From the NCBI GenBank assembly GCA_021731405.1, contig JAKFXN010000001.1:29857-93856 (forward strand): a DNA stretch of 64,000 bases, given 5' to 3'. The DNA is from Candidatus Parcubacteria bacterium. GTDB lineage: Bacteria > Patescibacteriota > Minisyncoccia > Phycocordibacterales > UBA918. Under the pieces are notes generated by a model. It ran no database searches. It saw nothing but the letters and a program-made list of their open reading frames with translations, and was not told the origin of the DNA. The position numbers and the translations under genes are program-made. Shown here one piece after another: positions 22,669 through 54,350 of this stretch. Positions within the stretch are counted from its first letter, which is position 1. Each line of letters begins with the position of its first letter.

Positions 22669-22741
22669 AGCCATCTGTCAGATTTGAACTGACGACCCAC
22701 GGTTTACAAAACCGTTGCTCTACCAACTGAGCTAAGATGGC
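22669..22741 (-). tRNA. tRNA-Thr (anticodon UGU), 73 nt, CCA not encoded, discriminator U
   Basis: Folded by hand into a full cloverleaf: acceptor GCCATCT/AGATGGC, D arm GCTC-AGTTGGTA-GAGC, anticodon arm ACGGT-TTTGTAA-ACCGT, variable loop GGGTC and T arm GTCAG-TTCAAAT-CTGAC. Confidence 0.92.
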
Positions 22742-38108: not shown

Positions 38109-41100
38109 TTAAATACCTCCACCGCCGCCAGAGCTACCGCCGCCTGCTTGGTGATACACCCTGACCTCAAGAGCATCTAGACGAATGGTATTGGAAGCTG
38201 GTTGCGCCGATACTCGAAGTCGGAAATTAGCTCCGCTAAACTGAGCTGCTGTCCAAGACCGTCCCCAAAGATCACTCGCACCACCCACAAGGTAGACTAC
38301 GTCAGAACCTGCCATAGTTGGAGTAGCTTTAGCAGTAGTGTATGAGTTACCACTATCCCAAGAGAGTGAGACATCAATTGTTCCAGCTGCCGTACTACCA
38401 GAAGCATCGAGCTTCACCGCAATACCTTGAATAGTATTTCCGTCAGGAACATTGAAGTTAAAGCCATTGTATGACTGACGAAGATTGGTTGAAGCGGCAG
38501 TGGCATAGGTACCATCAGACAAGAGGGCGTTTTCTCCATTAGTCCACTCATTATGACTGTCTCCAGTCGCGTTTGGACGAGCGAAGTCTGGGTCAGCAGC
38601 AATATTTTCTCCGTCTTCTTCCTCGCCAGCGCCCACTCCTCCACCAGTCTCACCTCCCTCAACAACACCTGCTCCTGCTGGTGCAGGATCTCCAATACGG
38701 GCAACATTACCTCCTCCACCTCCGCTACTATTCCTAAAATGTTGGGAAGTATTCACCGTCGTTAAAATGACCGGTGCGTAAACCGAGGTGGCCCCAAGAG
38801 CAGTTAACCCGAGTGCTGGAAGACTGAAGACTACCGAGTCTCCAAGCTGGGTCCCAGTAGTGTCAGCAGTGACCAGGTAATTGACTGACGTAGAGGCAAC
38901 AAAGTTTTGACTGAAGGTCACTGCACCATGTTGTCCATTGAAAGTCAGAATTCCGTCTCCATCAAGAAGGAGGTCTCCTCCATCCAAAACTCCATCGCTA
39001 TCATTGTCACGATAGAGATTGAAGTCGGAAAGATTGCTACTATCAAGACCTTGTACCCCACTAAGAGAGACCACCAGGTCAGTCACCGTTATCACTTCAC
39101 TCTGTCCGACCAGATTGAAGGCAAAGAGCGGAACATCATCTTTGTTTTGAGCACTAAACTCATTTTCTACTTGTCCCGCTGCATGATTTGCAATCGTAAC
39201 ACTGCCAGTAATACGGATTGTTTGTGTATCAAGTGCTGCTGGTTCACCGGCTGTATTACCGTCTGTATGAAGCTCAAAAGCGCTCGTAGTGGTAGAGACA
39301 GCGGCAAAAGATCCGGCCGTTATTCCGTTTACAATAAGCGTATCTGAGGCAGCGAAGTTTTCTGTCACGGTAAGCACCAGAGTTGCTCCGGCTTCTTCAT
39401 AAGATGCTGTAGTTGAAACCTTCCCCGCTGCCGTTCCGCCAAAGGTAAGATTGGTCGTACCGGTATTGAAACGGAAGTTTGAAGTAGTGGTCGCAATACT
39501 GATGCGAATATCATTTGCTGTAGTTATAGACGGACTAACACTCTCGGCAATAACCACTGCTCCGAGTGTGGTTGTGGCCTGCCCAACATAGAAGTGATAC
39601 GGGGCGGCAGAATAAAATTCTATTGCTTCTGCTGGCGTAAACGGCCAATTCACATTGTTGCCACTATCAAGACATCCTATATCACAAACCACAGTAGATA
39701 CATTAACGTTGTTTGAATCTTTTACATCTATGTTTGCTAAAGTTGTAGTAGCTGGATTTACATACCAATATTGACCATTTGTGCTTGAACGTAACAAATG
39801 CCTTTCACTTGAACTCGTTCCGGTAAAATTCCATTCTCCTTCAATAGTGGTAAGGGTACCTGCTCCGAAAGTGGTGGTGGCAGTTACTGTCGCATTCTTT
39901 GTCAGGTCAAAAAATGTCGTTGTTCCATTAAGGGCATGTACAGCACCAAGCAGGATAACTTCGCCCCCATTTGCGTCAAAAGCACCGTTATTAGTAAAGT
40001 CTCCGTTTGTGACCGAAAGCGCGCTTGAGGGTGCTGTAACACTCTTTCCCGCAGCCACTGTGAAACTTGTCGTTGAAGCAGTCGCTGTCAAAGTAACTCC
40101 GCCACCTCGACGAAGCACTGCGTCATCATCACCAACATACAAAGTTCCTCTACTGGTATCTATAGTCATCGCCCCAGTAAAGGTGGTGTCGCTTATAGTC
40201 TGGACCAAAGCCCAGTCAGCAGCAGAGTCACAGGCTGTAGATGTCTCACAACGAAACAAAATTTGTCCAGAACCAAAGCCACCAGCGTACAAAAAACCAT
40301 GACCTGAATCAAATTGGAGTGCGGTTATACCACCTAAAGTATCTCCCACATCCGTATCAAGTCCAGTAATGGTAGTAAAATCACCTGAAGCATTACAATC
40401 ACTGGAGAGTGGGCAGCGATAGATAATATCTGAAGATCCACCCCCGCCAGCGTACAAAACTTGATTGGTTGTATCAATTTCTATTGGAGTAAGATAGTCT
40501 ATTCCAGCATTATTGATCACAAATGAGAAGTCGCCATTTGCGTCACAGCTTGAGGATAGGACGCAGCGATAGATAGCACCAGCCCCACCATACCCGACAG
40601 TCACATACATCACATCGTTTACCTCATCAATTACAACATCACCCGAGTATCCAGAAATGGCAAAGCTTGAGAAATCACCTTGGGCATTACAGTCACTGGA
40701 AAGTGGGCAGCGGTAAAAGACGTTGTAATCACCACCGTATAAAACATTATTTTGTGTATCTATACCGAGGGCATAAAAACCATTTCCGTCTGCGTCATAC
40801 ACTTCACTAAAGTCACCCGAAGCATTACAGTCTGAAGACAAGACACAGCGATAAAGAGCACCTGAAGCAGGACTTCCAACACCAACATACAGAGCACCGT
40901 TTACTTCATCTACTACTATTGAGTAGACAATCTGATGTGTCGTATCATACGCCACTGCAAAGTCTCCACTGGCGTCACAGTTTGTGGTGAGGATACAGCG
41001 ATATAAGATTCCGTTGTCTCCCGAACCCGCATACAAGACGTCATTCGTTTCATCAATTGCAAAGACTCGGAACCATACCTGTCCACTTGCGTAAGCAGTA

Positions 41101-44100
41101 GTAAATGTCTCAGTCCCTACTCCAGAAACTTCAAGGTTTGCAAAAGCTGAAGTCCCAGTCATTGTCCCAGAAGCTACTCCTCCCAACGATGTTAAGAATA
41201 CCGTCCCGTTATTGGCATCAAAAGTTCCGCTATTTACATAATTCCCATTTACGATTAATTCCGCTGGTGCCTCGACAGTACCCTGCGTAATGGTTAAATT
41301 ATTCACTTCGGTGCTGGTTCCGAGGAGTAAGCCCGACCCGCCAACAGTAAGATGATTAAGGGCATTTGCCCCAACTAAGTCTCCCGAAAATTCTGGAGAA
41401 AGTTGGAAAGACATAATCTCACAACCAATAGCTGAGCCAGTGACAGATGAACAAGCGGTAAGACTTCCTTCTTTACCGAGGTAGAGATAATTACCACCAA
41501 CACTTAATGCCCCCATTGCAACCACTCCCGTTGCACCGGTAGGAGAACCGTTTGAGTCACGACCCGCGACATAGATAGGGTTTGTAGAAGAAGCGAGGTT
41601 ATAGACTTGCAGTTCACAACCAACGGCTGAATCTGGAATTTGGGAACAGGTCGTAGCATTATCTTCTTTACCAAGAAAGAGATGCTCATTTTTTATCACG
41701 ACTGAATATACTAACCCGGTAAACGTACCAACAGAACCACCGACGTCACGACCGGCACGATAAATAGGGTTCGTACTTGAAGAAATATCGTACACCTGAA
41801 GTTCGCAGTTATATGCTGCGCCTGCAACTTGAGAACAGGCAGAAGAACCTCCAGCGTTGGCAATATATAAATAATTGCCTGACTTGGCCATGCTTAAAAA
41901 TACATTGCCACTACTTCCTCCAGCATCTCCCTCAGCGTCACGACCGGCACGATAAATAGGGTTTGTACTTGAAGAAATATCGTACACCTGAAGCTCGCAA
42001 CCCGCCGCTGAACCTGGTGTCGGAGAACAAGCTGCAGTGTCACCGCCCGTACTGGCATACAGATAATCCCCATTAACAACTAAACTATAGACACTATTTA
42101 CACCCGAACCTGTTGATGACCCAGTACTATCACGTCCCGCCACATAGACCATATTTGTACTTGAAGAGATATCAAACACCATCAGTTCACAGCCGTCTCC
42201 CGCACCTGACGTTTGCCCGCACGAAGCACTGTTGAGTTCCTTCCCTGCATACAAATAATTACCTGACGCCGCTAAACTTAAGAAAAATAGCTGTGAGTTA
42301 CCATTGAGTGCACCATCATGATCTATTGAGGTAAGGAAGACAGGGTTTGTCGGATCAGTAATATCAAAAGACATCAGTTCACAACCCTGAGCGTTGGTCC
42401 CACTTTGGGTACAAGCGGTATTTACCCCTCCCTTACCAACAAACAAAATGTTGTCTTTAATGGTAAATGAAGAAATAAACTCCGCAAAGTTACCGTCCGC
42501 GGATCCGTCCACATCTCGCCCCGCGACGTAAATCATGTTGGTTGGATCAGAAACATCATACACTTGAATCTCACAGCCGATCGCCGAACCAGGAGTTTGT
42601 GAACAAGGAGTAGCCTCCCCAGCAGTACCAATAAATAAATAGTTGCCGTAGGTGATTGATTTATTGATAGTAACTGCGTCGGTACCTGTTGCTGATCCGT
42701 CCATATCCACCGCTCCAGAAAAACCAACAAGTGCTGTATCTGTATATATCTGTCCACCATTATTATCGAAGGTGCCTCCGTTGTGAAAGCTTCCAACAGT
42801 TAAATTTGTTGGCGCAACAAGACTTGAGCCAGCGCTGATGTAAAGATTTGAAGTTGAAGCAGAAGTAGTAGCAATGCTGTACGATGAAGAATTATCAAAA
42901 TCTAATGTAGAAAAGCTACTAGTTGCTGTCAAAATCCCATCAACCACTCCCGACCCAGTCATGTATACCACACCACCATTAGCATTAAATATTCCTCTAT
43001 TGATGAAATCCCCAGAAGCTTGTATAGATGGTGCTGAAACAAATTCTCCCCTGCTAATCAAAAAATCTCCATTAGAAACAAATTCTTCTCCGTTTAAGAA
43101 ATGAAGAATATCCGCATCAGACACAGTGTCGTAAGTAAAGTTAAGCGGATTTATTTGTACCGTAGATGAAGCACCGTACGCAATCACATGCTCATAGTAA
43201 AGCGGTATATTTCGTACCCCTATCCCCGTACTATACCCACTTACGAACGTAGTGGCGTCATTAGCATCACCATCAAGCCATATTACAAAAGGGGTACCGC
43301 TCGTAGCTGAAGAAACGTCTGCATTTGAAAATTCCCAAGCGCCACTACTATTTGTGGTAGTACTAAAAATACTTGGCGTTGAAGTACCGACCCACATCTT
43401 GATAGTTTTTCCCGAACCAGCGGTCGTTACGCCTGCGTCAGTGTACAATGTACCGGCAAAGTACGGAGACGGGGTTTCGCGGATAGCTAAGTGAATAGCC
43501 GCTGCGTCGTCAGTTGTGGCGTAGGTATAACCAACCGATCGTGCGCCTTGGCCAGCGGTAGTTTCCCGACCGAGCATACTAGCCTGCGTAGCAGCGAGCA
43601 CAATACTCTGCAGCGCAGTTGTGTTTGCGCCAGCAGTTAGGGCTGTGTTTCTACCAGTATAGGCTCCTACATACCGCATACTATTAGTACCCAAAGAACC
43701 ATCGTCTACTGACTGTTCACTGTACGCTAGGTTGTTTTGGAGTAATACATATCCGGTTGTTTCTGTATTCCCTGCTGCTTGTACAGAAGCTGCATTTGCG
43801 TACATTACCGTTGCATTATTGGTACGTGTTACCTCAATAGTCTGACTCCCCGTTGGGACACTTGACCCAAGAAAGAATGCGGTCACTCGAGCAGGTTCAG
43901 TGGTAGTGTCGATAGCCTCTGACACTTGCGTCATTGTTACTCCACCATAAGTTACTGAAGTAATGTAGTCTGCATTTGCTATTGTAGTCACAAACACGAG
44001 CACACCTTCAGGTGAGCCGGTATCTCCATGTGTCCAACTAAATGAAGTGGAGGAAGCGTTACCGCTTGTACCAGTATGACTTTCTGAAGAAGTACTGTGG

Positions 44101-44231
44101 GACACCGCCGCTAAAGCACTTGGTGCAAAGAGAACAAAATACGCAAAAGTAAAAAATAGAACCAGAAGAAAACCGAGGCTTTTTTTAGTTGCTTGGTTAG
44201 CGGTTTTGGTTGTGGTGATTGTTGTGTACAT
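38109..44231 (-). CDS. Giant (2040 aa) secreted repeat protein: 8 LVIVD-like beta-propeller repeats (C.L.VYD.S.STNP.Y.AGRD), 8 Cys-pair repeats (YRC.LSSDC.A.GDF), Ig-like regions and a Gly-rich C-terminus
   Basis: Signal peptide LGFLLVLFFTFAYFVLFAPSALA. The periodic repeats were read directly from the translation. Confidence 0.7.
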   Translation of the reverse strand: MYTTITTTKTANQATKKSLGFLLVLFFTFAYFVLFAPSALAAVSHSTSSESHTGTSGNASSTSFSWTHGDTGSPEGVLVFVTTIANADYITSVTYGGVTMTQVSEAIDTTTEPARVTAFFLGSSVPTGSQTIEVTRTNNATVMYANAASVQAAGNTETTGYVLLQNNLAYSEQSVDDGSLGTNSMRYVGAYTGRNTALTAGANTTALQSIVLAATQASMLGRETTAGQGARSVGYTYATTDDAAAIHLAIRETPSPYFAGTLYTDAGVTTAGSGKTIKMWVGTSTPSIFSTTTNSSGAWEFSNADVSSATSGTPFVIWLDGDANDATTFVSGYSTGIGVRNIPLYYEHVIAYGASSTVQINPLNFTYDTVSDADILHFLNGEEFVSNGDFLISRGEFVSAPSIQASGDFINRGIFNANGGVVYMTGSGVVDGILTATSSFSTLDFDNSSSYSIATTSASTSNLYISAGSSLVAPTNLTVGSFHNGGTFDNNGGQIYTDTALVGFSGAVDMDGSATGTDAVTINKSITYGNYLFIGTAGEATPCSQTPGSAIGCEIQVYDVSDPTNMIYVAGRDVDGSADGNFAEFISSFTIKDNILFVGKGGVNTACTQSGTNAQGCELMSFDITDPTNPVFLTSIDHDGALNGNSQLFFLSLAASGNYLYAGKELNSASCGQTSGAGDGCELMVFDISSSTNMVYVAGRDSTGSSTGSGVNSVYSLVVNGDYLYASTGGDTAACSPTPGSAAGCELQVYDISSSTNPIYRAGRDAEGDAGGSSGNVFLSMAKSGNYLYIANAGGSSACSQVAGAAYNCELQVYDISSSTNPIYRAGRDVGGSVGTFTGLVYSVVIKNEHLFLGKEDNATTCSQIPDSAVGCELQVYNLASSTNPIYVAGRDSNGSPTGATGVVAMGALSVGGNYLYLGKEGSLTACSSVTGSAIGCEIMSFQLSPEFSGDLVGANALNHLTVGGSGLLLGTSTEVNNLTITQGTVEAPAELIVNGNYVNSGTFDANNGTVFLTSLGGVASGTMTGTSAFANLEVSGVGTETFTTAYASGQVWFRVFAIDETNDVLYAGSGDNGILYRCILTTNCDASGDFAVAYDTTHQIVYSIVVDEVNGALYVGVGSPASGALYRCVLSSDCNASGDFSEVYDADGNGFYALGIDTQNNVLYGGDYNVFYRCPLSSDCNAQGDFSSFAISGYSGDVVIDEVNDVMYVTVGYGGAGAIYRCVLSSSCDANGDFSFVINNAGIDYLTPIEIDTTNQVLYAGGGGSSDIIYRCPLSSDCNASGDFTTITGLDTDVGDTLGGITALQFDSGHGFLYAGGFGSGQILFRCETSTACDSAADWALVQTISDTTFTGAMTIDTSRGTLYVGDDDAVLRRGGGVTLTATASTTSFTVAAGKSVTAPSSALSVTNGDFTNNGAFDANGGEVILLGAVHALNGTTTFFDLTKNATVTATTTFGAGTLTTIEGEWNFTGTSSSERHLLRSSTNGQYWYVNPATTTLANIDVKDSNNVNVSTVVCDIGCLDSGNNVNWPFTPAEAIEFYSAAPYHFYVGQATTTLGAVVIAESVSPSITTANDIRISIATTTSNFRFNTGTTNLTFGGTAAGKVSTTASYEEAGATLVLTVTENFAASDTLIVNGITAGSFAAVSTTTSAFELHTDGNTAGEPAALDTQTIRITGSVTIANHAAGQVENEFSAQNKDDVPLFAFNLVGQSEVITVTDLVVSLSGVQGLDSSNLSDFNLYRDNDSDGVLDGGDLLLDGDGILTFNGQHGAVTFSQNFVASTSVNYLVTADTTGTQLGDSVVFSLPALGLTALGATSVYAPVILTTVNTSQHFRNSSGGGGGNVARIGDPAPAGAGVVEGGETGGGVGAGEEEDGENIAADPDFARPNATGDSHNEWTNGENALLSDGTYATAASTNLRQSYNGFNFNVPDGNTIQGIAVKLDASGSTAAGTIDVSLSWDSGNSYTTAKATPTMAGSDVVYLVGGASDLWGRSWTAAQFSGANFRLRVSAQPASNTIRLDALEVRVYHQAGGGSSGGGGGI

Positions 44232-44252: not shown

Positions 44253-47200
44253 CTACACTACTGGTTCTTCACTTGGTTCTTCGACCGGGGCTTCAGGTTC
44301 TTCTTCAGGAGTCGGCTCTTCGGTCTCTTCTTCTGCAGGTTCTTCTGTTTCCTCCTCTTCGGTTTCTATAGTAGTTTCTTCTACAACTTCTTCATTCATC
44401 TCTTCGTCAATTGGTTCTTCCAGTGGTGGCGGTGTCTCCTCTTCTGCAACCTCCCCGTCGTTTGTTTCTTCTCCACTTGGTTCTTCCTCTACTTCTTCGT
44501 CTGGTGCAGGTTCTTCTCCGCTTGGCTCCTCTGCTGGTTCTTGAGGTACTACTTGCTCATCAAGCAGTCGCCGCAAGTCTTCCGCGTTGAGACATACTCC
44601 ATCCACACAAATCTCTTCCTTCACTTCCACTCGGTCTGCTTTCAAGGTAAGGATTGAGAGAACACCATCCACGAAGTTATTTGCTAAAGTAACAAGGCGA
44701 TTCCAAACTGTTTCTTCGCCTACCTCCCCTTCAATATCAAGCGCACCTGCTACCAGTGCGGCAATCATCGTCTTTCCTTCTTCGTCCAAGAATCGTTCGT
44801 TGAGTGAAACAAACATTACAATCTGTCCAACACGTACTTCCTCTCCACTATCCAAAGTCACTCGCTCGCTGCGAATATTTTTGAGCGCTGCCAATGCCGC
44901 CGCTTGCGCTTCAGCTTCAGCGAGCATTTGTGCTTCTTCTGCTTGTCCATCGGTTGAAGTAGCGATAAGTGGTACACATGGCGCTTCACCCGAAGCGCTT
45001 CCAGCGCCGTAGTAACAACCGTCATTAATACGCGGGTCGTTATCTTTATTGATAGGAGTTACTACCGGGTCAACCAAGTCATCTCCGAATTGATTAATAT
45101 ATGTATCTGAGTACGCTCGTGTCGCTTCAAAATCTTCAAGCGCAATACCAACCACCATTCCAGTTGAAGAAGCCTTCATTGCCACACCTGGTACTGAAGA
45201 AAGCATAAGCTCATCACCTGCTTTGATTTCTCCGTTTTCGTTTGAAAGTCGGACTGGCACACGTCCAGCTAAAGCTACTCCGTATCCTTCTTCACCAGCA
45301 CTGAGTGAACTGTCGTCAAATCCGAGGAGGAGACCCGGCTTTGTGGTCACAACTCCGATAACTTTTTCTTCTGTCTCTTCGCTCGCTTTACCAATTGAAA
45401 GTCCGTTCTTGAGGTACACAATTTCACCCGTCTTAAGAGACTCATTTGAGAAGTACATTTCCGCTAAGTCGGAATTACCCGTGTGATATGAAACTGCTGA
45501 GATACGCCCAGTGGTTGAAGCATTGCAACTACCGTCGTTATCAACACAGATACCACCGTACCCAATCTGGAGTCCAGCGTTGTTATTAGTTGTCCCGTCT
45601 CCGATAGTCGTCATACCGCGCGCACCAACAGTGAAGAGTGAGGTGCCAGCATTTTGGAGATCAATGTACTTTGAAGCAGTTGTTGAAGAGAATGAACCAC
45701 CTCCGTTTCCAAAGTTCATAAGTAGCCCCGTACCCACATAGGTCGAAGTGTCTTGGAAGAGCTTGAGGAGTGCAGCAGTGGTGATAGTCGAAGAGTAGCC
45801 ACGAAGTGCATTGCCTTGAGTAGTACCTTGCGTCTCTCCGTACACACCAGCTGGCTCAAAGGTACCGCCAGCATCACCCGCTGTGGTACCACGTACACCA
45901 AACGTTCGCGCAAAGCCTGAGAGCGCAGTGTTTTCTCCACGAGTGTTGTTTCCTCTATCGGTCTGTACTTCGAGTCCACGGACCGTGTTACCAAATGTGG
46001 TACTGTCTTCAAGTCTAAAGATGTTGCCTACGATAGTAGTTGTAGCGGTGGTGGTAGCGTAGAGATAAGTGTTGTTACCAAACTGCACTGCACTTGGCGT
46101 ACTGTTGGTGAAAGTAAAATATTGCTCAAGCCCTGCAGTACCCGCAGTATTAAAGTTGCGTCGTTCAATTGCTAAACGGGCACCTGGAGTAGTGGTACCG
46201 ATACCCACGTTTCCTGAAGATAGTGTGGAATCAATACCATCAACTCCGGTACCAAAGATAAGGTTGCCGATATTGAGAGTATTGTCTGCTGAAGCAGATA
46301 CGGCATCTATGTCATACCCGATGATGATGTTGTTGTTTCCGGTGGTGAGGTTGTCCGCCGTAAATGCTCCCAAGGCAATGTTACCTTCACCAGTCTCACT
46401 ATTTTCCAAAGCACTTACTCCAAGCGCTGTATTTCGCCGACCAGTTGTATTAGAAGCTAAAACACCTCTACCTATTGCGGTATTATCAGCACCAGTTGTA
46501 TTTGCAATCATTGTGAAGAAACCCAGCGCTGTGTTACTACCACCAGTTGTGGTGTTACTCATTGAGCTTTGCCCTACCGCGGTATTAGTACCACCAGTTG
46601 TTAAGGAACTGAGAGCGTACGAACCAATACCAACGTTATCAAGTCCTATGAACTGGTTGGTAGAAGAACCCAGTGTAAAGTTACCAGCCTGACGACCCAT
46701 AAAGATATTATCGCCATAAGTGTCGTCTAACGCGTAAGTATGAATAAAGCGATCACTTCCTACATTAAGTACCCCCGCAGCACCCCCACTTGTGGTTTCT
46801 GGAATATCTATATTCCCAGTCACACTCACATTACCAGCGACCGTGAGCTTTGAGCCCGGAGTTGAAGTACCAATACCCACATTACCTGAAGATAAGGTTG
46901 TCCCTGTACCATCAAGCCCAGTACCAAAGATAAGGTTGCCGATGTTGAGTACATTGTCAGCTGTGGCTGTGATGTTGTCGATATCGTAGCCGATGATGAT
47001 GTTGTTGTTTCCGGTGGTGAGGTTATCAGCAGCTTGGTAGCCGAGGAGAATGTTGTTGTCTGCACCAGTAGCCATGTTATATCCTGCACGGCGTCCAATC
47101 ACGGTAAAGTTACTTGCTTGATAATTAACACCATTGCCAAACGCCGCATTAGTTCCCAGAGCAACTGAATTAGAAGACGTGGCGGCATGGAAAGCAGAAT

Positions 47201-50200
47201 AAGCACCGATAAAAGAATTATCATTACCAGCACGAAGCTGGTCTCCTGCTGCTGCTCCAAGGAAAGAGTTAGCATAACCAGAGCTCACGCTACTTCCTGC
47301 TGCATATCCTAGAGCAGTGTTATGAGAACCGTCTGTTTCACCAGCCAATGCAAAGGTACCGATACCGATGTTGAAGCCACCTGTGGTTATTTGCCGACCA
47401 GCTAAGGCACCCATCAAGATATTGCTATCTGAAGCGCCCGTAAGACTTTCTCCAGCGCGGTAACCAAAAAGATAGGCACCTATGGTAGATGAAGCACTGA
47501 TGACCCGTTCACCACCAAACGCAATACCAGTAGTGCTACCCAGTGCAAGATCGGTGCCATTAAACGTAAAGTCTGCACTATCAACAAGTGCGGTTGCTCC
47601 TGAGTTTGTATACATAATGCGGTTAGCCGTGTATGAAGAAGGGGTATCAGTAAGTGCGAGGAACGTAGTTGCGCCACCACCAATACCAAGCGTACTTGTA
47701 GCTACCCAACGAGTTGAGGTGCCGGTGGTTTGGAGAATCATACCGAGAGTACCCGACGCATTTGCTCCGTCGCGGAAGGCGCCGGTGAGACGAATGTCTC
47801 CAGCGATTGAAAGCTTGCTTGCAGGAGTTGAAGTACCTATTCCAACGTTCCCTGACGCAAGCGTTGTCCCTGTACCATCAAGACCAGTACCAAAGATAAG
47901 GTTGCCGATGTTGAGTACATTGTCAGCTGTGGCTGTGATGTTGTCGATATCGTAGCCGATGATGATGTTGTTGTTTCCGGTGGTGAGATTGTCGGCTGCG
48001 CGGTAGCCAAGGAGTACATTATTATTAGCACCTGTTTGTGCGTTGTATCCGGCCTGGAAACCGATTGCGGTGTTGTTAGTAGCTTGAAATGGTGTGCCTA
48101 CATTTACAGCCGCAGAACCTCCGCGCAACGCTCCGCTACCAATAGCGATAGTAGCTGATGCTTGGAGCAAACCAGCTGCCTCAAGTCCTATAAACTCATT
48201 GTAGTTACCACTGTTTCTATACCCTGCCCCTGCACCGAAGAAGTTACTAAACGATCCTGTAGTTGAAGCACCTGCCGCAAAACCAATTATGTTGTTGAAA
48301 CTACCTGAACTGAAAGCTCCAGCGTTGCTACCAAACATATTATTGTAATCACCAGTACTTTCCCCTCCAGCGTAAAATCCAATAGCGTTGTTTTCATCAC
48401 CGGTGTTATTTTGACCAGTGTAATACCCAACAGCAACAAGACGACTTCCGGTGTTATTTTCGCCTGCAGAAAAACCGAGAGCATTGAGGTTTGCGCCAGT
48501 ATTGTCTTGTCCAGCAGCCGTACCTACCAAAGCACTGTATCCTCCAGTGTTATTTTGACCAGCGTTATGACCAATAATTGTTGAGCCGTCAGACTGATTA
48601 TAGGTACCTCCACCCACCAGCACATTATCGTTACCGCTATTTGAAAACCCTACACTCTGACCAATCATTATGTTATTTTCTCCGTAATTGTTATAACCTG
48701 CTTGGTAGCCGATAAATATATTTTCACTGGAAGTACTATTAAGACCTGCTTCCCGTCCAATCTTTATTACATCTATAGAGGATGAAGCGGTAAACATTCG
48801 CGTACCGCCAAATGAGATGCCGTCATCATTACCCAACCCAAGGTTAGTTCCATTAAACGTGAGATCAGCTGAATCAATAAGCGCAGTTGCACCGGAGTTT
48901 GTGTACATGATGCGATTAGCGGTAAATGACGACGGTGTGTCAGTGAGTGCCAAGAAAGTTGAAACGCCACCAATACCAAGCGTACTTGTAGCTACCCAAC
49001 GAGTTGAGGTGCCCGTGGTTTGAAGAACCATCCCAAGAGTTCCAGACGCGTTTGCGCCGTCACGGAACGCGCCGGTGAGGCGCATACCCCCGACCACTGT
49101 AAGTTCAGAAGACGGAGTGGTAGTACCGATACCTAAACGTCCACTCACATCAAATACACTAAGTGGTGTCCCTGCACTGTTACGTAATTCTAAAAGGCTG
49201 GCTGTTTGAGTAGAGGTCGCCTGTGCCAAGATAGTAGGAATAGTAGTACTTGAAGAACGCACATCAAAAACTCCCTGTACATCAACTGTGTTAAGACCAA
49301 GTAGTCCTGGTTCACCAAGGATAAGGCGTGTCTGACCACCAAATGTAAAGGCCGAGTAGTAATCCGTTAGATTAATTGTCCCGACATTTCCGTTATTATT
49401 AGAAGAGAGCGCTAGGCCGGTAGTGGTGTAGTTATATCCAATTGTCCCAACATTGTTTCCGTTACCAGAATCAAGAGTGATCAAGTCACCGAGCGGACCG
49501 CGAATATAGAGAGGTGTCGAAGGATCATCGATACCATACCCCATACCAACATATCCATTATGAAGGACAGTCATAAGAGAATCCCCAGTTGATGACGCCA
49601 CGACAAACGGATTACTACTACCTGTCCCTACAACAGTAAGTCTATTATTTGGCGTTGAAGTACCAATACCTACATTTCCACTCGCTAGAGTAGTACCTGT
49701 ACCATCAAGACCAGTACCGAAGATGAGGTTACCGATGTTGAGACGGTTGTCGGCAGTAGCAGTTACGTTATCAATATCGTAACCAATAATGATGTTGTTA
49801 TTTCCGGTCGTGAGGTTGTCGGCTGCACGATATCCAAGGAGGATATTGTTGTCTGAGCCAGCCTGTGCAGCATAGCCTGCCCGGTAGCCAAGAGCGACGT
49901 TGTTGGTTGCATTAAAAGGTGAGGTTCCCGAACCTCCTCGATAGGCTTCCCCTCCGATGATTACAGAAGAAGTGGCTCTGAGGTTATATCCAGCTTCATA
50001 ACCAAGCATTTGGTTATATACGCCCTGATTAAAATATCCAGCCTGATAACCAATAAGTTCGTTATATGAACCTGTATTGCTATACCCTGCATAATTACCG
50101 ATAAGAGAGTTAAACGTACCAGTATTATTAGTTCCCGCGTGGCCACCTAGTCTTAGAACGCCATTGCTTGGATCAGCGCTAATCGCTCGAGTACCACCAA

Positions 50201-53200
50201 AAGCAATTCCCGTAGTAGCATTAAATCCTAAATTAGTGCCATCAAACGTAAAGTTAGATGCATCTGTGAGCGCTGTCCCACCACTGTTGGTGAAGATAAC
50301 TCTATTAGCAGTGAGTGAGTTTTGGGTATCAGAAAGACCAGTAAAAGTATTGTCTCCAAAACCAAGGGTTGAGGTAGCAACCCAGCGAGTTGAGGTGCCG
50401 GTGGTTTGGAGAATCATGCCGAGTGTTCCAGAGGCGTTTGCTCCGTCACGGAAGGCGCCAGTAATATATGTGTCTCCTACTATAGTAAGCCTGCTACTTG
50501 GAGTAGTCGTACCAATACCAACGTTTCCATTACTATCAACATTGATGCGACGATTACCTTGGCCGTCAGCGATGATGATGTTGTTTGAAAGTGATGAAGA
50601 AAGGCCAGAAACATTTGCCCCAAGAATGGTGTTGTAATCACCAGTGACAATACCCAGGCCAGTTTCATTACCGATAATAGTGTTATTCTCTCCATCTACA
50701 ATGTTGCTTCCAGTGGTGCGTCCTATACCAATGTTTCCTCCTCCTGTAGCCGCATTAAGAGCATAGTATCCGATACCCACATTACCCCAACTGGTTGAGT
50801 TAGAACCAACTGCCAATCCTCCGATAGCAACATTGTAGTTACCAGTAGTATTTTGATCTAAAGCATTGTATCCAACAGCGGTGTTATGCTCGCCAAGAGT
50901 ATTGTTCACCAGCGCAATAGAACCAACAGCGGTATTGAACTGTCCCGCAGTATTGTCTGCCAGCGCGGCATTTCCGACTGCAGTGTTATTAGAAGATGAA
51001 GTACTAACCATAAGAGCATTAGTACCAAGTGCTGTATTAGAATTACCAGTTATGTTTTGCTGTAAGGCATACCGACCCATGGCGATATTGCTGTAGCCAG
51101 TGGTTGTAAACTGCATCGCCCCTTGCCCGACAACAGTGTTATCAGAACCGGTAGTCAAAGCACCAAGTGCAAACCTACCAACACCCAAGTTATCAATTCC
51201 GAGGAACTGATTGGTACTCGAGCCAAGGGTAAAGTTACCAGCCTGATACCCCATGAACTGGTTAGTTCCATATGTATTATCTAGAATATAACCATGAATG
51301 AAGCGTTCGCCATCAATATTAAGTACTCCAGCCGCACCGCCTGCAGTAGTACTGAGAAGATTAACGTTATTTGTGACACTAATTGTGCCCGCCACACTGA
51401 GCCTAGAAGCTGGTGTTGAGGTACCAATACCAAAATTAGTGCCATCAAAGATTAAACTAGCAGAGTCTGTAAGTGACGTACCACCACTATTAGTGAAGAT
51501 AACTCTATTAGCAGTGAGTGAGTTTTGAGTATCAGAGAGACCGGTAAAAGTATTGTCTCCAAAACCAAGCGTTGAAGTCGCTACCCAGCGTGTTGAGGTG
51601 CCGGTGGTTTGGAGAATCATGCCGAGTGTTCCTGAGGCATTTGCTCCGTCACGGAAGGCACCGGTGAGACGAAGAGTGCTCAAAAACGCATCTCCAGACA
51701 CTGAGAGATTTGTAGTAGAGGCGTTTCCTAGAGTTGAAGCCCCACTCACAGAAAGTGCTCCAGAGGTCAAGGTACCGCCGTTTAAGTTAAGTGGCGTTGC
51801 TCCGCCAGTAGTATATAGACCATAGTCTATGAGTGCTTGACGTAAATCTGCTGTTGCTCCCGCCTTTACTATTGGAGTAGCCCCAAAGAAACCGAGTTGT
51901 GAAGCGCTGAGATTATCTTTAATTGAAATAACTGTACCTAGTCCTGACAAAAGGTTTATTGTTCCGTTCTGACCACTGCCGTCTCCTAATCCTGCAGATA
52001 ACTCAAGATTTCCTCCTTCTCCATCAAAACCAGCTTCAGCTGACCCACCAAAAAATCCGAAGTTTCCTCCTCTGGTGCGACCGGTACCTCCAAAAGCTTG
52101 CATCTCTCCACCAATTCCACCTCCAAAGAGCGCATTACCACCAGATAAATAGACTGAGTTTGCGGAACCAGACGTTACCGCAGCAGCTTGAATTTCTAAG
52201 TTTGTGCCAGGAAGAGACTCTATATATCTTGTGTAGACAGTGCCTGTAGATGTGACGTTTCCACCAACATACGCATTCCCTCCCACTGTAAGTCGTGAGC
52301 CAGGAGTAGTACTTCCAATACCGAGATTAGTCCCATCAAAAACAAAGCTGGCAGAATCAGTAAGTGACGTACCGCCACTATTGGTGAAGATAACTCTATT
52401 AGCGGTAAATGAAGACTGGGTATCACTGAGTCCCAGATACGTGCCGTTACCGAGACCAAGAGTTGAAGTCGCTACCCAACTGGTACCGATACCTGTACTA
52501 CTCAGAATCTGCCCAACTGTACCAGACGCATTTAGGGTGTCACGGAAAGAGCCGGTGAGGCGAAGGTCGCCAACAACTGAAAGCGTACTGCCCGGAGTTG
52601 TTGTGCCGATACCAACTCTGCCGGCGCTAGTGACTGTAATTCGGTTAGTACCAGCAGTAGCAAAACCGAGACCTGTTCCTTCCATGTACATACCAGTACT
52701 CGTATCTCCTGTCCAAGAGTACTTTGGTGCTGCGGCAGTGCCAGCTCCGACCATCTGGAATTGTCCTACCCCTCCATTGAGAGCCCAACGCATTCTTTCT
52801 GCACCACCAAGAGAAAGACTAAACTGGGAGGCAGCACTTCTGTACAGACCTACGTCCGAGCCCAATGCGATACCTCCCGTTGCAGAAGTACTGTCGGCGA
52901 GTGTGAGGGTTGAGTATGGAGTAGTTGTCCCAATACCAATGTTTCCGCTACTGAGCACTGTAAAGACTTCTGTCACCCCACTAAAAAGTGCGAGTACTTT
53001 TCCGACACCATTTTGAATAATTGAAAGAATTGGTGAAGACGACGTAGCCTGCATGGTGTCCGCTTCATCAGAACGAAGGAACGAGGTGGTCGCTATACCA
53101 GCTAGTGTCTGAGCATTTTCTGCTTCAAACGCAGCGGGTACGGCACCAAGGATTTTTCGTGGACTCATTTCTCCGTCCCATACTGGTGTAGTAGTACTAA

Positions 53201-53558
53201 TGCCGCCAATCTCAACTCCAAGATATAGCGTCTGATTGAAGTTGACGTTTGTCAGAGTAGAGACGTCTCCGAGCATAACTGAAAAGAGACCGTTTTGAAC
53301 TTGGACACGGTTTCCGCTCGTGCGCACCTCACTCCATACCGCAGTAGAAGTAGCGCCAACGTCCGTTGGTACAAGCCAAAAATTCATGTTGTAAAGACCG
53401 TCTGGCACCGCCACACCAGAAGCGTTCGTAAGCTTTCCTTGGTAATTTATTTCAGGATTAAATTGCGCAAACGAAGTAGTTGGGACAAGGGCAAGGAGCA
53501 ACAACCCTACGAGCGTAGGAAGAATATATCGGTTTAGGTTGTTACTAAAAAAGATCAT
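44253..53558 (-). CDS. Giant (3101 aa) secreted protein with phage tail-fibre / YadA-head-like beta-roll repeats (NTA[VI]G..AL..NTTG), repeated GIGTTTP..L.V.G motifs, a putative C-terminal intramolecular-chaperone (peptidase S74-like) region and a polyacidic tail
   Basis: N-terminal signal peptide, hundreds of ~14-aa Asn/Gly/Thr-rich repeats, four ~60-aa near-identical modules (ADNLTTGNNNIIIGYDIDNITATADNVLNIGNLIFGTGLDGTGTTLASGNVGIGTSTP) and a C-terminal E/P-rich tail. Confidence 0.7.
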   Translation of the reverse strand: MIFFSNNLNRYILPTLVGLLLLALVPTTSFAQFNPEINYQGKLTNASGVAVPDGLYNMNFWLVPTDVGATSTAVWSEVRTSGNRVQVQNGLFSVMLGDVSTLTNVNFNQTLYLGVEIGGISTTTPVWDGEMSPRKILGAVPAAFEAENAQTLAGIATTSFLRSDEADTMQATSSSPILSIIQNGVGKVLALFSGVTEVFTVLSSGNIGIGTTTPYSTLTLADSTSATGGIALGSDVGLYRSAASQFSLSLGGAERMRWALNGGVGQFQMVGAGTAAAPKYSWTGDTSTGMYMEGTGLGFATAGTNRITVTSAGRVGIGTTTPGSTLSVVGDLRLTGSFRDTLNASGTVGQILSSTGIGTSWVATSTLGLGNGTYLGLSDTQSSFTANRVIFTNSGGTSLTDSASFVFDGTNLGIGSTTPGSRLTVGGNAYVGGNVTSTGTVYTRYIESLPGTNLEIQAAAVTSGSANSVYLSGGNALFGGGIGGEMQAFGGTGRTRGGNFGFFGGSAEAGFDGEGGNLELSAGLGDGSGQNGTINLLSGLGTVISIKDNLSASQLGFFGATPIVKAGATADLRQALIDYGLYTTGGATPLNLNGGTLTSGALSVSGASTLGNASTTNLSVSGDAFLSTLRLTGAFRDGANASGTLGMILQTTGTSTRWVATSTLGFGDNTFTGLSDTQNSLTANRVIFTNSGGTSLTDSASLIFDGTNFGIGTSTPASRLSVAGTISVTNNVNLLSTTAGGAAGVLNIDGERFIHGYILDNTYGTNQFMGYQAGNFTLGSSTNQFLGIDNLGVGRFALGALTTGSDNTVVGQGAMQFTTTGYSNIAMGRYALQQNITGNSNTALGTNALMVSTSSSNNTAVGNAALADNTAGQFNTAVGSIALVNNTLGEHNTAVGYNALDQNTTGNYNVAIGGLAVGSNSTSWGNVGIGYYALNAATGGGNIGIGRTTGSNIVDGENNTIIGNETGLGIVTGDYNTILGANVSGLSSSLSNNIIIADGQGNRRINVDSNGNVGIGTTTPSSRLTIVGDTYITGAFRDGANASGTLGMILQTTGTSTRWVATSTLGFGDNTFTGLSDTQNSLTANRVIFTNSGGTALTDASNFTFDGTNLGFNATTGIAFGGTRAISADPSNGVLRLGGHAGTNNTGTFNSLIGNYAGYSNTGSYNELIGYQAGYFNQGVYNQMLGYEAGYNLRATSSVIIGGEAYRGGSGTSPFNATNNVALGYRAGYAAQAGSDNNILLGYRAADNLTTGNNNIIIGYDIDNVTATADNRLNIGNLIFGTGLDGTGTTLASGNVGIGTSTPNNRLTVVGTGSSNPFVVASSTGDSLMTVLHNGYVGMGYGIDDPSTPLYIRGPLGDLITLDSGNGNNVGTIGYNYTTTGLALSSNNNGNVGTINLTDYYSAFTFGGQTRLILGEPGLLGLNTVDVQGVFDVRSSSTTIPTILAQATSTQTASLLELRNSAGTPLSVFDVSGRLGIGTTTPSSELTVVGGMRLTGAFRDGANASGTLGMVLQTTGTSTRWVATSTLGIGGVSTFLALTDTPSSFTANRIMYTNSGATALIDSADLTFNGTNLGLGNDDGISFGGTRMFTASSSIDVIKIGREAGLNSTSSENIFIGYQAGYNNYGENNIMIGQSVGFSNSGNDNVLVGGGTYNQSDGSTIIGHNAGQNNTGGYSALVGTAAGQDNTGANLNALGFSAGENNTGSRLVAVGYYTGQNNTGDENNAIGFYAGGESTGDYNNMFGSNAGAFSSGSFNNIIGFAAGASTTGSFSNFFGAGAGYRNSGNYNEFIGLEAAGLLQASATIAIGSGALRGGSAAVNVGTPFQATNNTAIGFQAGYNAQTGANNNVLLGYRAADNLTTGNNNIIIGYDIDNITATADNVLNIGNLIFGTGLDGTGTTLASGNVGIGTSTPASKLSIAGDIRLTGAFRDGANASGTLGMILQTTGTSTRWVATSTLGIGGGATTFLALTDTPSSYTANRIMYTNSGATALVDSADFTFNGTDLALGSTTGIAFGGERVISASSTIGAYLFGYRAGESLTGASDSNILMGALAGRQITTGGFNIGIGTFALAGETDGSHNTALGYAAGSSVSSGYANSFLGAAAGDQLRAGNDNSFIGAYSAFHAATSSNSVALGTNAAFGNGVNYQASNFTVIGRRAGYNMATGADNNILLGYQAADNLTTGNNNIIIGYDIDNITATADNVLNIGNLIFGTGLDGTGTTLSSGNVGIGTSTPGSKLTVAGNVSVTGNIDIPETTSGGAAGVLNVGSDRFIHTYALDDTYGDNIFMGRQAGNFTLGSSTNQFIGLDNVGIGSYALSSLTTGGTNTAVGQSSMSNTTTGGSNTALGFFTMIANTTGADNTAIGRGVLASNTTGRRNTALGVSALENSETGEGNIALGAFTADNLTTGNNNIIIGYDIDAVSASADNTLNIGNLIFGTGVDGIDSTLSSGNVGIGTTTPGARLAIERRNFNTAGTAGLEQYFTFTNSTPSAVQFGNNTYLYATTTATTTIVGNIFRLEDSTTFGNTVRGLEVQTDRGNNTRGENTALSGFARTFGVRGTTAGDAGGTFEPAGVYGETQGTTQGNALRGYSSTITTAALLKLFQDTSTYVGTGLLMNFGNGGGSFSSTTASKYIDLQNAGTSLFTVGARGMTTIGDGTTNNNAGLQIGYGGICVDNDGSCNASTTGRISAVSYHTGNSDLAEMYFSNESLKTGEIVYLKNGLSIGKASEETEEKVIGVVTTKPGLLLGFDDSSLSAGEEGYGVALAGRVPVRLSNENGEIKAGDELMLSSVPGVAMKASSTGMVVGIALEDFEATRAYSDTYINQFGDDLVDPVVTPINKDNDPRINDGCYYGAGSASGEAPCVPLIATSTDGQAEEAQMLAEAEAQAAALAALKNIRSERVTLDSGEEVRVGQIVMFVSLNERFLDEEGKTMIAALVAGALDIEGEVGEETVWNRLVTLANNFVDGVLSILTLKADRVEVKEEICVDGVCLNAEDLRRLLDEQVVPQEPAEEPSGEEPAPDEEVEEEPSGEETNDGEVAEEETPPPLEEPIDEEMNEEVVEETTIETEEEETEEPAEEETEEPTPEEEPEAPVEEPSEEPVV
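46896..47012. repeat. Intragenic direct DNA repeat, copy A (~115-130 nt, nearly identical to copy B 973 bp downstream)
   Basis: GTACCAAAGATAAGGTTGCCGATGTTGAGTACATTGTCAGCTGTGGCTGTGATGTTGTCGATATCGTAGCCGATGATGATGTTGTTGTTTCCGGTGGTGAG. Confidence 0.8.
47869..47988. repeat. Intragenic direct DNA repeat, copy B
   Basis: Same ~105-nt string as copy A with at most 1-2 mismatches. More diverged copies lie near 46230-46350 and 49690-49830. Confidence 0.8.
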
Positions 53559-53564
53559 ACGATT

Positions 53565-54350
53565 TTATTCGCTGGCTTTATTACGTTCTTCCTCAACACC
53601 CGAAACAGGTACCGTCACAAATGGATATTCCACTACCTCACCCTCATTTTTTTTGTATTCAATCACTCCATCAGCATCTTCACTAAACACCACACTGACT
53701 TCATCTGAAAAAAGATTCTGCACGTCTTCTACTGTTTTAATATCTCCTTCACTTGGAAGAATAAAAATTCCCTCCACTCCTTCTCTATCCATTCTTCGCA
53801 CCTCACTTTCATCCTCAAAAAGTGGGTACTCCATGACCGTTGAGTACAGAGTCGTTGGTTGCGGCTCTGCAGTAGCAAAATTCTCAGAGGTCACTACCGG
53901 CAACTCTTCAACTATCGAAACCTCACCAGCCCCGCTGAGACGAGCCATGTTTATGTGTTGAGGTAAAAGTGCTGAGGAGGTGTACAGCCCTGTCCCGATC
54001 ATGAGCCCCAGACCAAGTGCGAGCGTGGCTGCTAACTGGGCACGAACTCGGACAAGCTTCACTTTTCCCCGAGCTGTTTTTTTGATCACCCCCACTTCCT
54101 GCTTCACGGTCTGCTCGCGCTTGCGCTCGAGACTGAGCTGCTGTTTTCGAACCGTCTGTTCGAGCTCTGCTGTCTCAGCAAAATTTCGAAGTGAGGTGGT
54201 GTCGATAAACCACTGTCGTCCGATTTGTGAAGCGACGATTTTTTGTTCACGGGCGAGACGAGCTACATAGTCACGCGAATACGAAACAAGCTTGGACGCA
54301 TCCTTGATTGGAAGAAAGGTAGCTCCGTTTATTTCTACTTGTGTCGACAT
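53565..54350 (-). CDS. Membrane-anchored protein with an N-terminal excisionase/MerR-type HTH (HTH_17-like), a central TM and an acidic C-terminal domain
   Basis: FLPIKDASKLVSYSRDYVARLAREQKIVASQIGRQWFIDTTSL matches the excisionase-family HTH pattern. TM LAATLALGLGLMIGTGLY. Confidence 0.55.
   Translation of the reverse strand: MSTQVEINGATFLPIKDASKLVSYSRDYVARLAREQKIVASQIGRQWFIDTTSLRNFAETAELEQTVRKQQLSLERKREQTVKQEVGVIKKTARGKVKLVRVRAQLAATLALGLGLMIGTGLYTSSALLPQHINMARLSGAGEVSIVEELPVVTSENFATAEPQPTTLYSTVMEYPLFEDESEVRRMDREGVEGIFILPSEGDIKTVEDVQNLFSDEVSVVFSEDADGVIEYKKNEGEVVEYPFVTVPVSGVEEERNKASE

What the first reader, a model, noticed from the sequence alone, without database searches (positions are those of the whole stretch)
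46896..47988. Near-identical ~105-130-nt direct repeats 973 bp apart inside the giant gene (four ~60-aa modules)
Two DNA segments are identical except for 1-2 bases, within a gene whose other module copies near 46.2 and 49.7 kb are clearly diverged. This points to recent duplication or ongoing gene conversion. Such repeats allow in-frame expansion or contraction of the ~320-aa modules, giving length or antigenic variation of the fibre.
Basis: seen in the sequence. Interest (0 to 1): 0.5.

Follow-up and report, generated by a model that had tools for sequence, protein, structure and literature searches.

The report
Gene-conversion patch in giant fibre gene
Two 125-base stretches inside a 3,101-residue surface-fibre gene of a tiny Patescibacteria bacterium are identical at 124 of 125 bases because one copy recently overwrote the other, which is a real but ordinary event in repetitive surface-protein genes.

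Summary
Window 46897-47021 and 47863-47987 match at 124 of 125 bases. The spacing is 966 nt (322 codons, in frame), not 973. Both copies lie in the ORF 44253-53558 (-), 3,101 aa.

Outside the tract the amino acids stay conserved, but third-codon positions differ at once. The other two module copies encode almost the same peptide with 18-19 of 42 codons synonymously different. This marks a recent short gene-conversion tract (permutation p about 1e-4; Fisher p = 2e-7). It is not a recent duplication of a whole module.

A syntenic sister-species gene (3,229 aa) lacks the identity and lacks one of the four modules. Gene architecture therefore does change over evolutionary time. Variation within a population could not be tested, because no close strains were found.

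The gene belongs to a large Patescibacteria family of secreted mosaic fibres. These share a conserved N-terminal domain, a stalk with a Bdellovibrio-MAT-like motif, and a C-terminal domain resembling the phage phi29 gp12 auto-chaperone. In 11 of 40 family genes there are comparable intragenic repeats (at least 100 nt, at least 95% identical), so the feature is common in this family.

Interest is low to moderate.

The parts
44253..53558 (-). Giant gene of 3,101 aa. It has a Sec-type signal peptide, a conserved N-terminal domain, a mosaic central stalk of A, B and C modules, a conserved C-terminal domain and an acidic tail.
   Evidence: ORF list and translation. There are 723 homologues, all giant Patescibacteria proteins.
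46897..47021 (-). Repeat copy a, the core of C module 3 (aa 2180-2221). It lies in a segment that has no counterpart in the sister-species ortholog.
   Evidence: for the repeat. Searches show that window 47673-46835 corresponds to only about 100 nt in L001.
47863..47987 (-). Repeat copy b, the core of C module 2 (aa 1858-1899). By its flanks it is orthologous to the L001 module at aa 2098.
   Evidence: Flank identities to L2098 are 0.78 and 0.68.
49648..49823 (-). C module 1 (IIIGY at aa 1256). In the core, 40 of 42 residues match the converted pair, but 18-19 codons differ synonymously (81-82% nt identity).
46183..46358 (-). C module 4 (IIIGY at aa 2411), 78% nt identity to the pair in the core. 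It shares short exact patches with the pair, for example a 32-nt CTCACCACCGGAAACAACAACATCATCATCGG.
   Evidence: The permutation test for w2187/w2411 gives p = 0.025.
50227..50462 (-). A module 3, part of a second and older homogenised pair with 51430-51665 (88% over 236 nt; 63 identical residues).
   Evidence: The paralogs are 87% identical, against 77% to the ortholog L649.
51430..51665 (-). A module 2, the partner of 50227-50462.
44802..45521 (-). C-terminal domain resembling an intramolecular chaperone or auto-cleavage domain (about aa 2680-2919). It begins at the invariant motif GNSDLAEMYF.
   Evidence: Pfam Peptidase_G2 matches the window protein at E = 0.002-0.003, below the curated cutoff, and 12 of 20 family members with best E = 1e-6. 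Foldseek matches phi29 gp12 C-terminal fragment 3gqh at E = 2e-4, prob 1.00. The PDB profile search gives 3gqh at E = 0.4.
52914..53558 (-). Signal peptide (ending ...TSFA|QF...) and the family-defining N-terminal domain (INYQGKLT...GLFSVMLG...PRKILGAVPAAF).
   Evidence: alignment A1, and 284 relatives found in species-representative genomes with this domain.

Best explanation
The two 125-nt segments are the product of a recent, short intragenic gene-conversion event, that is, non-reciprocal homologous recombination. It occurred between two paralogous 'C' modules of a giant mosaic surface-fibre gene in a Patescibacteria (Paceibacteria-type) bacterium.

Shown: one copy's sequence replaced the other's over about 125 nt. 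The tract is bounded on both sides by sequence in which the protein is conserved but synonymous sites have diverged.

Inferred: the modules encode a strongly conserved peptide, which is the end of a beta-helical repeat array plus the 'GNVGIGTSTP' connector. Their DNA therefore stays similar enough (76-82%, with exact runs of 20-30 nt) for the recombination machinery to pair them. Conversion then homogenises patches from time to time.

Shown: the same gene carries an older patch in its A modules.

Consequence (inferred, not observed): the 104-nt exact repeat is now a substrate for in-frame unequal recombination. That would delete or duplicate 966 nt (322 aa).
For: 1. The segments match at 124 of 125 bases at an in-frame spacing of 966 nt.
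2. In the 42 core codons of the pair, 40 codons are identical and 2 differ synonymously. Against C module 1, 40 of 42 residues are the same but 18-19 codons differ synonymously.
3. Mismatches resume at 47022, 47025, 47028, 47031 and so on, and at 46896, 46895, 46893, 46892, 46890 and so on. They follow a 3-nt period, meaning synonymous divergence starts directly outside the tract. Fisher's test of core against the pair's own flanks gives p = 2e-7.
4. A GENECONV-style permutation test gives p about 1e-4 for this pair only.
5. Paralogs are closer than orthologs in the tract: the pair is 0.98 identical, but each copy is only 0.82 identical to the orthologous module in the syntenic sister-species gene L001. 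That gene has no such repeat.
6. A second, older patch exists in A modules 2 and 3: 87-88% between paralogs against 77% to the ortholog.
7. In 11 of 40 family genes from other species there are intragenic direct repeats of at least 100 nt at 95% identity or more. Of 18 such pairs, 17 have in-frame spacing.
Against: Only one assembly of this genome is available, and no reads, so the sequence cannot be confirmed independently. The donor and recipient copies cannot be told apart, because copy a has no ortholog in L001. No recombination genes were looked for. Part of the similarity at the 5' end of the tract (32 nt) is also shared with module 4 and nearly with L001, so codon constraints or older exchanges contribute there.
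Confidence: 0.85

Rival explanations
1. A whole module of about 320 aa was recently duplicated in tandem or segmentally, and the near-identical stretch is what remains before divergence.
For: The spacing is in frame (966 nt), and the two units share the same A-B-C order.
Against: Identity falls to about 59% directly outside the 125-nt tract, although the amino acids remain conserved there. The B parts of the two units are only 40-46% identical in protein. Divergence cannot spare 125 nt and saturate the neighbouring synonymous sites.
Confidence: 0.03
2. It is an assembly or polishing artefact, in which the consensus of one module was imposed on the other or the contig is a chimera of strains.
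For: This is a metagenome-type genome with one assembly only. Genes of this family often break assemblies: 40 of 78 run off a contig end.
Against: A collapse removes sequence and does not create two copies with different unique flanks. Reads from paralogs that are about 80% identical do not cross-map, so polishing would not homogenise them. The tract edges fall exactly where codon-periodic divergence starts, and the copies differ by one synonymous base. Comparable patches occur in independent assemblies of 11 other species. The sister gene was assembled identically by NCBI and Logan pipelines, which shows that such genes can be assembled reproducibly.
Confidence: 0.05
3. Selection acts on the nucleotide sequence itself, for example an embedded RNA element, an internal promoter or an antisense gene, and this keeps the two segments identical.
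For: A + strand ORF (47482-47955) overlaps copy b.
Against: The other two module copies and all three copies in the sister species are not conserved at synonymous sites. There is no Rfam match. The tract shows no unusual RNA folding, with z = -0.82. The antisense ORF covers only one of the two copies.
Confidence: 0.02
4. It is the template and variable repeat pair of a diversity-generating retroelement.
For: The pair are direct repeats of about 125 nt, near-identical, in a surface protein gene of a lineage known (from my own knowledge) to be rich in such elements.
Against: No reverse transcriptase was found among the 37 window ORFs scanned with Pfam. The single difference is not part of a pattern of adenine-specific substitutions. 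Both copies are coding modules in the middle of the gene, and their homology extends beyond the tract.
Confidence: 0.005

Closest known systems
Concerted evolution and gene conversion among repeat modules of bacterial surface proteins (repeat-containing adhesins such as streptococcal alpha-C/Rib-type proteins and trimeric autotransporter adhesins; named from my own knowledge)
   Same: In-frame repeated modules in a large secreted surface protein. Patches of DNA identity reach synonymous sites. Module number differs between related genomes.
   Different: Here the repeats are dispersed and mosaic, with spacings of 672 to 1827 nt and unique sequence between them, rather than a homogeneous tandem array. 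TRF finds no tandem array. The organism is a Patescibacteria bacterium with no known immune-exposed lifestyle.
Bdellovibrio bacteriovorus MAT (mosaic adhesive trimer) fibres, PDB 8OL4/8ONF (Bd2439) and 8OND (Bd2133); PMC10769870
   Same: Both have an invariant N-terminal domain, a long repetitive stalk and exchangeable C-terminal ends (S74 or non-S74). The stalk motif '...G..G...SGNVGIGTTTPxxKLxVxG' aligns at E = 2.4e-4. Family members here likewise end either in the conserved non-S74 domain or in Peptidase_S74 (P0009, P0012 and P0069).
   Different: The window protein is three times longer. Its N-terminal domain was not compared with that of the MAT proteins. The similarity is at motif level only. 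Trimer formation and surface display are not shown here.
Phage phi29 gp12 pre-neck appendage (tailspike) with C-terminal auto-chaperone; Pfam Peptidase_G2, PDB 3GQH/3SUC
   Same: The C-terminal domain after the invariant SDLAE motif matches by fold (E = 2e-4, prob 1.00). It also matches weakly by sequence: Pfam in 12 of 20 members and PDB at E = 0.4.
   Different: The window protein scores below Pfam's curated cutoff (17.9 bits against 25). The structural model is confident only for about 220 residues. Auto-cleavage is inferred, not shown. The host is a cell, not a phage.
Trimeric autotransporter adhesins (YadA-like head repeats)
   Same: The B arrays ('NTAxGxxALxxNTTGxxN') look like YadA/Hep_Hag head repeats. 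Sources name some homologues 'trimeric autotransporter adhesin'.
   Different: Pfam finds no YadA anchor, head or stalk domain, and there is no C-terminal beta-barrel anchor.

Membership tests
Non-allelic (intragenic) gene-conversion tract | A stretch of near-identity between paralogous sequences, bounded on both sides by diverged homologous sequence | tested here: met
   124/125 identical bases. Mismatches resume at 47022 and 46896 with codon periodicity.
Non-allelic (intragenic) gene-conversion tract | Synonymous sites are homogenised inside the tract relative to other paralog pairs and to the pair's own flanks | tested here: met
   Identical versus synonymously different codons are 40/2 in the core, 22/18 against module 1, and 8/15 in the pair's own flanks. 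Fisher p = 2e-5 and 2e-7.
Non-allelic (intragenic) gene-conversion tract | The run of concordant polymorphic sites is longer than expected when sites are permuted (GENECONV-type test) | tested here: met
   A run of 28 sites, p about 1e-4, for this pair only among the six pairs.
Non-allelic (intragenic) gene-conversion tract | Paralogs are more similar than orthologs within the tract | tested here: met
   0.98 between the paralogs against 0.82 to the ortholog L2098. Outside the tract, the flanks of copy b are closest to L2098.
Recent whole-module duplication | The entire duplicated unit is near-identical | tested here: not met
   The flanks are about 59% identical in DNA, and the B arrays are 40-46% identical in protein.
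Diversity-generating retroelement (TR/VR) | A reverse transcriptase nearby and adenine-specific mismatches between the template and variable repeats | tested here: not met
   No RT domain in any of the 37 window ORFs scanned. There is one non-patterned mismatch.
Simple-sequence contingency locus or tandem-repeat array | Head-to-tail repeat array or homopolymer tract in the gene | tested here: not met
   TRF finds nothing in 44253-53558.
Trimeric autotransporter adhesin | C-terminal YadA-type beta-barrel anchor and recognised head, stalk or neck domains | tested here: not met
   No Pfam family at E <= 0.01 for the whole protein or E <= 1 for the module segments.
Bdellovibrio-type MAT fibre | Trimeric beta-helix or beta-prism stalk with the GxGTxxP...KLxV motif | tested here: inconclusive
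   The profile hits 8ol4 and 8ond at E = 2.4e-4 over 44-99 residues. The AF2 monomer model has pLDDT 68.5 and gives no fold match.
Bdellovibrio-type MAT fibre | Homologous invariant N-terminal anchoring domain | not tested
   The N-terminal domain is conserved within the Patescibacteria family but was not compared with MAT N-termini.
Peptidase_G2 / phi29 gp12 intramolecular chaperone | Sequence match above Pfam's curated threshold | tested here: not met
   17.4-17.9 bits against a cutoff of 25 for the window protein. Twelve of 20 family members match at E <= 0.01, best 1e-6.
Peptidase_G2 / phi29 gp12 intramolecular chaperone | Fold of the auto-chaperone domain | tested here: inconclusive
   Foldseek gives 3gqh at E = 2e-4 and 3suc at E = 1.5e-3, both prob 1.00. 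However, the overall model has pLDDT 49, and only residues 244-465 are confident.
Peptidase_G2 / phi29 gp12 intramolecular chaperone | Auto-proteolytic release of the C-terminal domain after trimer assembly | not testable with these tools
   This needs protein biochemistry. The invariant S-D-L-A-E motif is a candidate site.

The most novel reading that the evidence does not exclude
This family of giant Patescibacteria proteins may be a cell-borne, phage-tailspike-like host-attachment fibre, with a MAT-like stalk and a phi29 gp12-type auto-chaperone. Its module content would be actively reshuffled within populations by short-tract conversion and unequal recombination at patches such as this one. 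The gene would then act as a recombination-driven variable locus for the host range or attachment of an episymbiont.
Probability: 0.2. Interest if true: 0.55.

Novelty: new member of a known kind. Interest (0 to 1): 0.27.

Why it matters
On its own this is a clean example of intragenic gene conversion, a well-known way in which repetitive surface-protein genes evolve. Its wider value is context.

- It marks a large, unannotated family of secreted giant fibres in Patescibacteria. Pfam finds no domain in the 3,101-aa protein.
- The family appears to be built like phage tailspikes and Bdellovibrio prey-recognition fibres.
- It evolves by module exchange. Eleven of 40 genes carry similar patches, and the sister species differ in module content.
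- If these fibres mediate attachment of these ultra-small bacteria to their hosts, the repeats show where length and specificity can change.
- The repeats also explain why such genes so often break metagenome assemblies.

Tried and rejected
- Looking up the giant protein and two neighbouring proteins by exact sequence, to find other assemblies of the same strain, found nothing on record.
- Cluster look-up gave no accession or name.
- Two degenerate-pattern scans of JGI metagenome contigs gave 0 hits. One pattern covered 31 residues of the converted core and the other covered 39 residues of the adjacent A module. No population data could therefore be obtained.
- The scan of species-representative genomes did not contain the window's own genome. 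The best N-terminal match, L003, is only about 70% identical in DNA and is not a closer relative than L001.
- Pfam found nothing on the whole protein or on separate N-terminal, A, B and C segments.
- The AlphaFold model of the C+A junction was mediocre (pLDDT 68.5) and had no PDB fold match.
- The model of the C-terminal 536 residues was poor except for residues 244-465.
- Rfam, tandem-repeat search and RNA folding of the tract gave nothing.
- BLASTP of the whole protein against itself returned only the self-hit, so chunked queries were used instead.
- DGR, TAA membership, whole-module duplication and assembly collapse were considered and rejected for the reasons given under rival explanations and the membership tests.
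Full report
**Observation**

A k-mer diagonal analysis and a direct alignment show that window 46897-47021 and 47863-47987 are identical at 124 of 125 positions. The only mismatch is 46917 C against 47883 A, and the longest exact run is 104 nt. Both copies lie inside the ORF 44253-53558 on the minus strand, 3,101 aa. They encode aa 1858-1899 and 2180-2221, both reading LTTGNNNIIIGYDIDNITATADNVLNIGNLIFGTGLDGTGTT. Two more copies of the same module, about 60 aa long, lie at 49648-49823 and 46183-46358. These are 74-82% identical in DNA. The implied uniform 320-aa unit does not hold: the spacings between copies are 672, 966 and 1827 nt.

**What kind of identity it is**

I aligned the four module copies codon by codon.

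- In the 42 core codons, the pair has 40 identical codons and 2 synonymous differences.
- Against module 1, the same 42 codons encode 40 identical residues, but 18-19 codons differ synonymously.
- Immediately outside the tract the amino acids of the pair remain conserved (LLGYxAADN upstream, LxSGNVGIGTSTP downstream). Mismatches nevertheless reappear every third base: 47022, 47025, 47028, 47031, 47034 on one side, and 46896, 46895, 46893, 46892, 46890, 46884, 46881 on the other.
- Fisher's test of core against the pair's own flanks (40/2 against 8/15 identical versus synonymously different codons) gives p = 2e-7.
- A GENECONV-style permutation of the 81 polymorphic sites gives p about 1e-4 for this pair and nothing comparable for the other five pairs.
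- The probability of at least 124/125 matches at the 82% background identity is about 5e-10.

This is the signature of a recent, short conversion tract. It is not the signature of protein-level constraint. It is also not a recently duplicated 966-nt unit, because the flanks are about 59% identical and the beta-helical arrays between the modules are only 40-46% identical in protein.

**Comparison with a sister species**

The closest homologue, P0002 (3,229 aa), sits in a fully syntenic locus, L001. The gene order there is SecA, Obg, GatB, a 310-aa gene, a 261-aa gene, the giant gene, a second giant gene, and so on. L001 comes from GCA_040384005.1 and was recovered identically by an independent Logan assembly. 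Flanking genes are 81-86% identical in DNA, and the first 3 kb and last 2 kb of the giant gene are collinear. The centre is rearranged.

L001 has three C modules and no long near-identical intragenic repeat. Judged by their flanks, window modules 1, 2 and 4 correspond to L001 modules at aa 1668, 2098 and 2399. Window module 3, which carries repeat copy a, lies in a stretch of about 840 nt (47673-46835) that corresponds to only about 100 nt in L001. In the core, the two window copies are 0.98 identical to each other but each is only 0.82 identical to the ortholog L2098. The homogenisation therefore happened in the window's lineage after the split.

The same gene holds a second, older patch. A modules 2 and 3 (51430-51665 and 50227-50462) share 63 identical residues and 87-88% DNA identity, against 77% to the ortholog. 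Module 4 shares short exact patches with the converted pair.

**Alternatives**

- The 37 window ORFs scanned with Pfam are housekeeping or surface-protein genes, including RNase III, NusB, DnaE, ThrRS, GyrB, PheST, EF-Ts, S2, RF, transketolase, GAPDH, GatB, Obg, SecA and MurB. None has a reverse transcriptase domain, so a DGR is excluded.
- Rfam finds only a tRNA-Thr at 22669-22741.
- There is no tandem array in the gene.
- The tract does not fold unusually as RNA, with z = -0.82.
- An assembly collapse cannot create two copies with different unique flanks. Paralogs that are 80% identical do not cross-map in polishing. Independent assemblies of other species show the same kind of patch (see below). 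I could not check reads, so a small residual doubt remains.

**What the gene is**

The protein has a Sec-type signal peptide (ending ...TSFA|QF) and no LPXTG motif. Pfam recognises nothing in it. A search of 5.8 billion proteins gives 723 relatives at E <= 1e-10. All of the 120 best listed are giant (1,700-5,300 aa), and every source name that identifies an organism points to Patescibacteria (Nomurabacteria, Kaiserbacteria, Paceibacteria, Parcubacteria). They share the N-terminal domain. Of the 79 with a BLASTP match to the window's roughly 540-aa C-terminal segment, 66 share most of it (at least 480 residues). Their centres are highly variable. A few end in Peptidase_S74 instead.

A profile of the C-plus-A junction hits the trimeric MAT fibres of Bdellovibrio (8OL4/8ONF for Bd2439, 8OND for Bd2133) at E = 2.4e-4, through the motif SGNVGIGTTTPxxKLxVxG. 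Those proteins are described as surface-displayed mosaic trimers with an invariant N-terminal domain and either S74 or non-S74 tips (PMC10769870).

The C-terminal domain, which follows an invariant GNSDLAEMYF motif, matches Pfam Peptidase_G2 (an intramolecular-chaperone auto-cleavage domain) in 12 of 20 members. The best E-value is 1e-6, and the window protein scores E = 0.003, below the curated cutoff. The confident part of its AlphaFold model matches the phi29 gp12 C-terminal auto-chaperone (3gqh at E = 2e-4, 3suc at E = 1.5e-3, both prob 1.00).

I therefore read the gene as a secreted fibre, probably trimeric, of the tailspike/MAT type with a self-cleaving assembly domain. The sequence and fold matches are shown. 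Trimerisation, cleavage and a role in host attachment are inferred.

**How common the feature is**

Using the N-terminal profile I fetched 80 loci from species-representative genomes. Of the 78 genes identified, 40 run off a contig end, consistent with repeats breaking assemblies. Among the 40 genes with at least 3 kb readable:

- 18 have an intragenic direct repeat of at least 100 nt at 90% identity or more;
- 11 have one at 95% or more, ranging from 100 nt to 2.2 kb;
- 17 of the 18 pairs at 95% or more have in-frame spacing.

At the protein level, most of the 120 homologues contain exact internal repeats of tens to hundreds of residues. The window's patch is thus a typical member of a recurrent process in this family.

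**Consequences and limits**

A 104-nt exact direct repeat is, from general knowledge of RecA-dependent recombination, long enough to support unequal exchange. That would delete or duplicate exactly 322 codons. Differences in module number and length between the two sister species (3,101 against 3,229 aa; 4 against 3 C modules; at least three large in-frame indels) show that architecture does change. However, the indel that distinguishes the two species does not have the breakpoints expected from exchange between these two copies. No within-species data could be found: exact look-ups and two metagenome scans were empty. Ongoing length variation or antigenic variation therefore remains a hypothesis.

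**Verdict**

The event is an ordinary mechanism in a poorly described but widespread gene family. I rate it a new member of a known kind, of low to moderate interest.

Noticed in passing
window 38109-44231 (-): A second giant secreted protein (2,040 aa, rich in G/T/S/A) lies directly downstream of the fibre gene. Pfam finds nothing and BLASTP finds no similarity to the fibre. Its ortholog in L001 is 1,852 aa, so it also varies in length. It contains a 64-nt direct repeat at 96.9% identity and 192-nt spacing (about 41744 and 41936).
   Followed up: partly
window 50227-50462 and 51430-51665: A second homogenised pair in the same gene, A modules 3 and 2. They are 88% identical over 236 nt and share 63 identical residues. 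They are closer to each other than to the ortholog, so this is an older conversion event.
   Followed up: yes
window 44802-45521 (-), and alignment A3: The C-terminal domain is family-wide conserved, with an invariant SDLAE motif and six invariant cysteines. It matches the phi29 gp12 auto-chaperone fold and Pfam Peptidase_G2. This suggests a self-cleaving assembly domain in a cellular protein.
   Followed up: partly
loci L003-L082: Of 78 family genes in species-representative genomes, 40 run off a contig end, often within 1 kb of the conserved N-terminal domain. These genes are systematically fragmented in metagenome assemblies.
   Followed up: partly
window 8528-11959 (-) and 12130-12804 (-): A 1,143-aa DUF11-containing protein lies next to a sortase gene. 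This looks like a separate sortase-dependent surface protein system. The giant fibre itself has no LPXTG motif.
   Followed up: no
window 53565-54350 (-): A 261-aa protein with a weak HTH_17 match lies immediately upstream of the fibre gene. A 261-aa gene occupies the same position in L001. It may be a regulator of the fibre operon.
   Followed up: no
window 46989-47021 / 47955-47987 / 46317-46349 region (gene-strand CTCACCACCGGAAACAACAACATCATCATCGG): A 32-nt stretch at the 5' end of the C module is identical in three of the four window copies and differs by one base in L001 module 2098. It may be a recurrent pairing or initiation site for exchange, or it may reflect limited codon choice for Asn and Ile.
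   Followed up: partly
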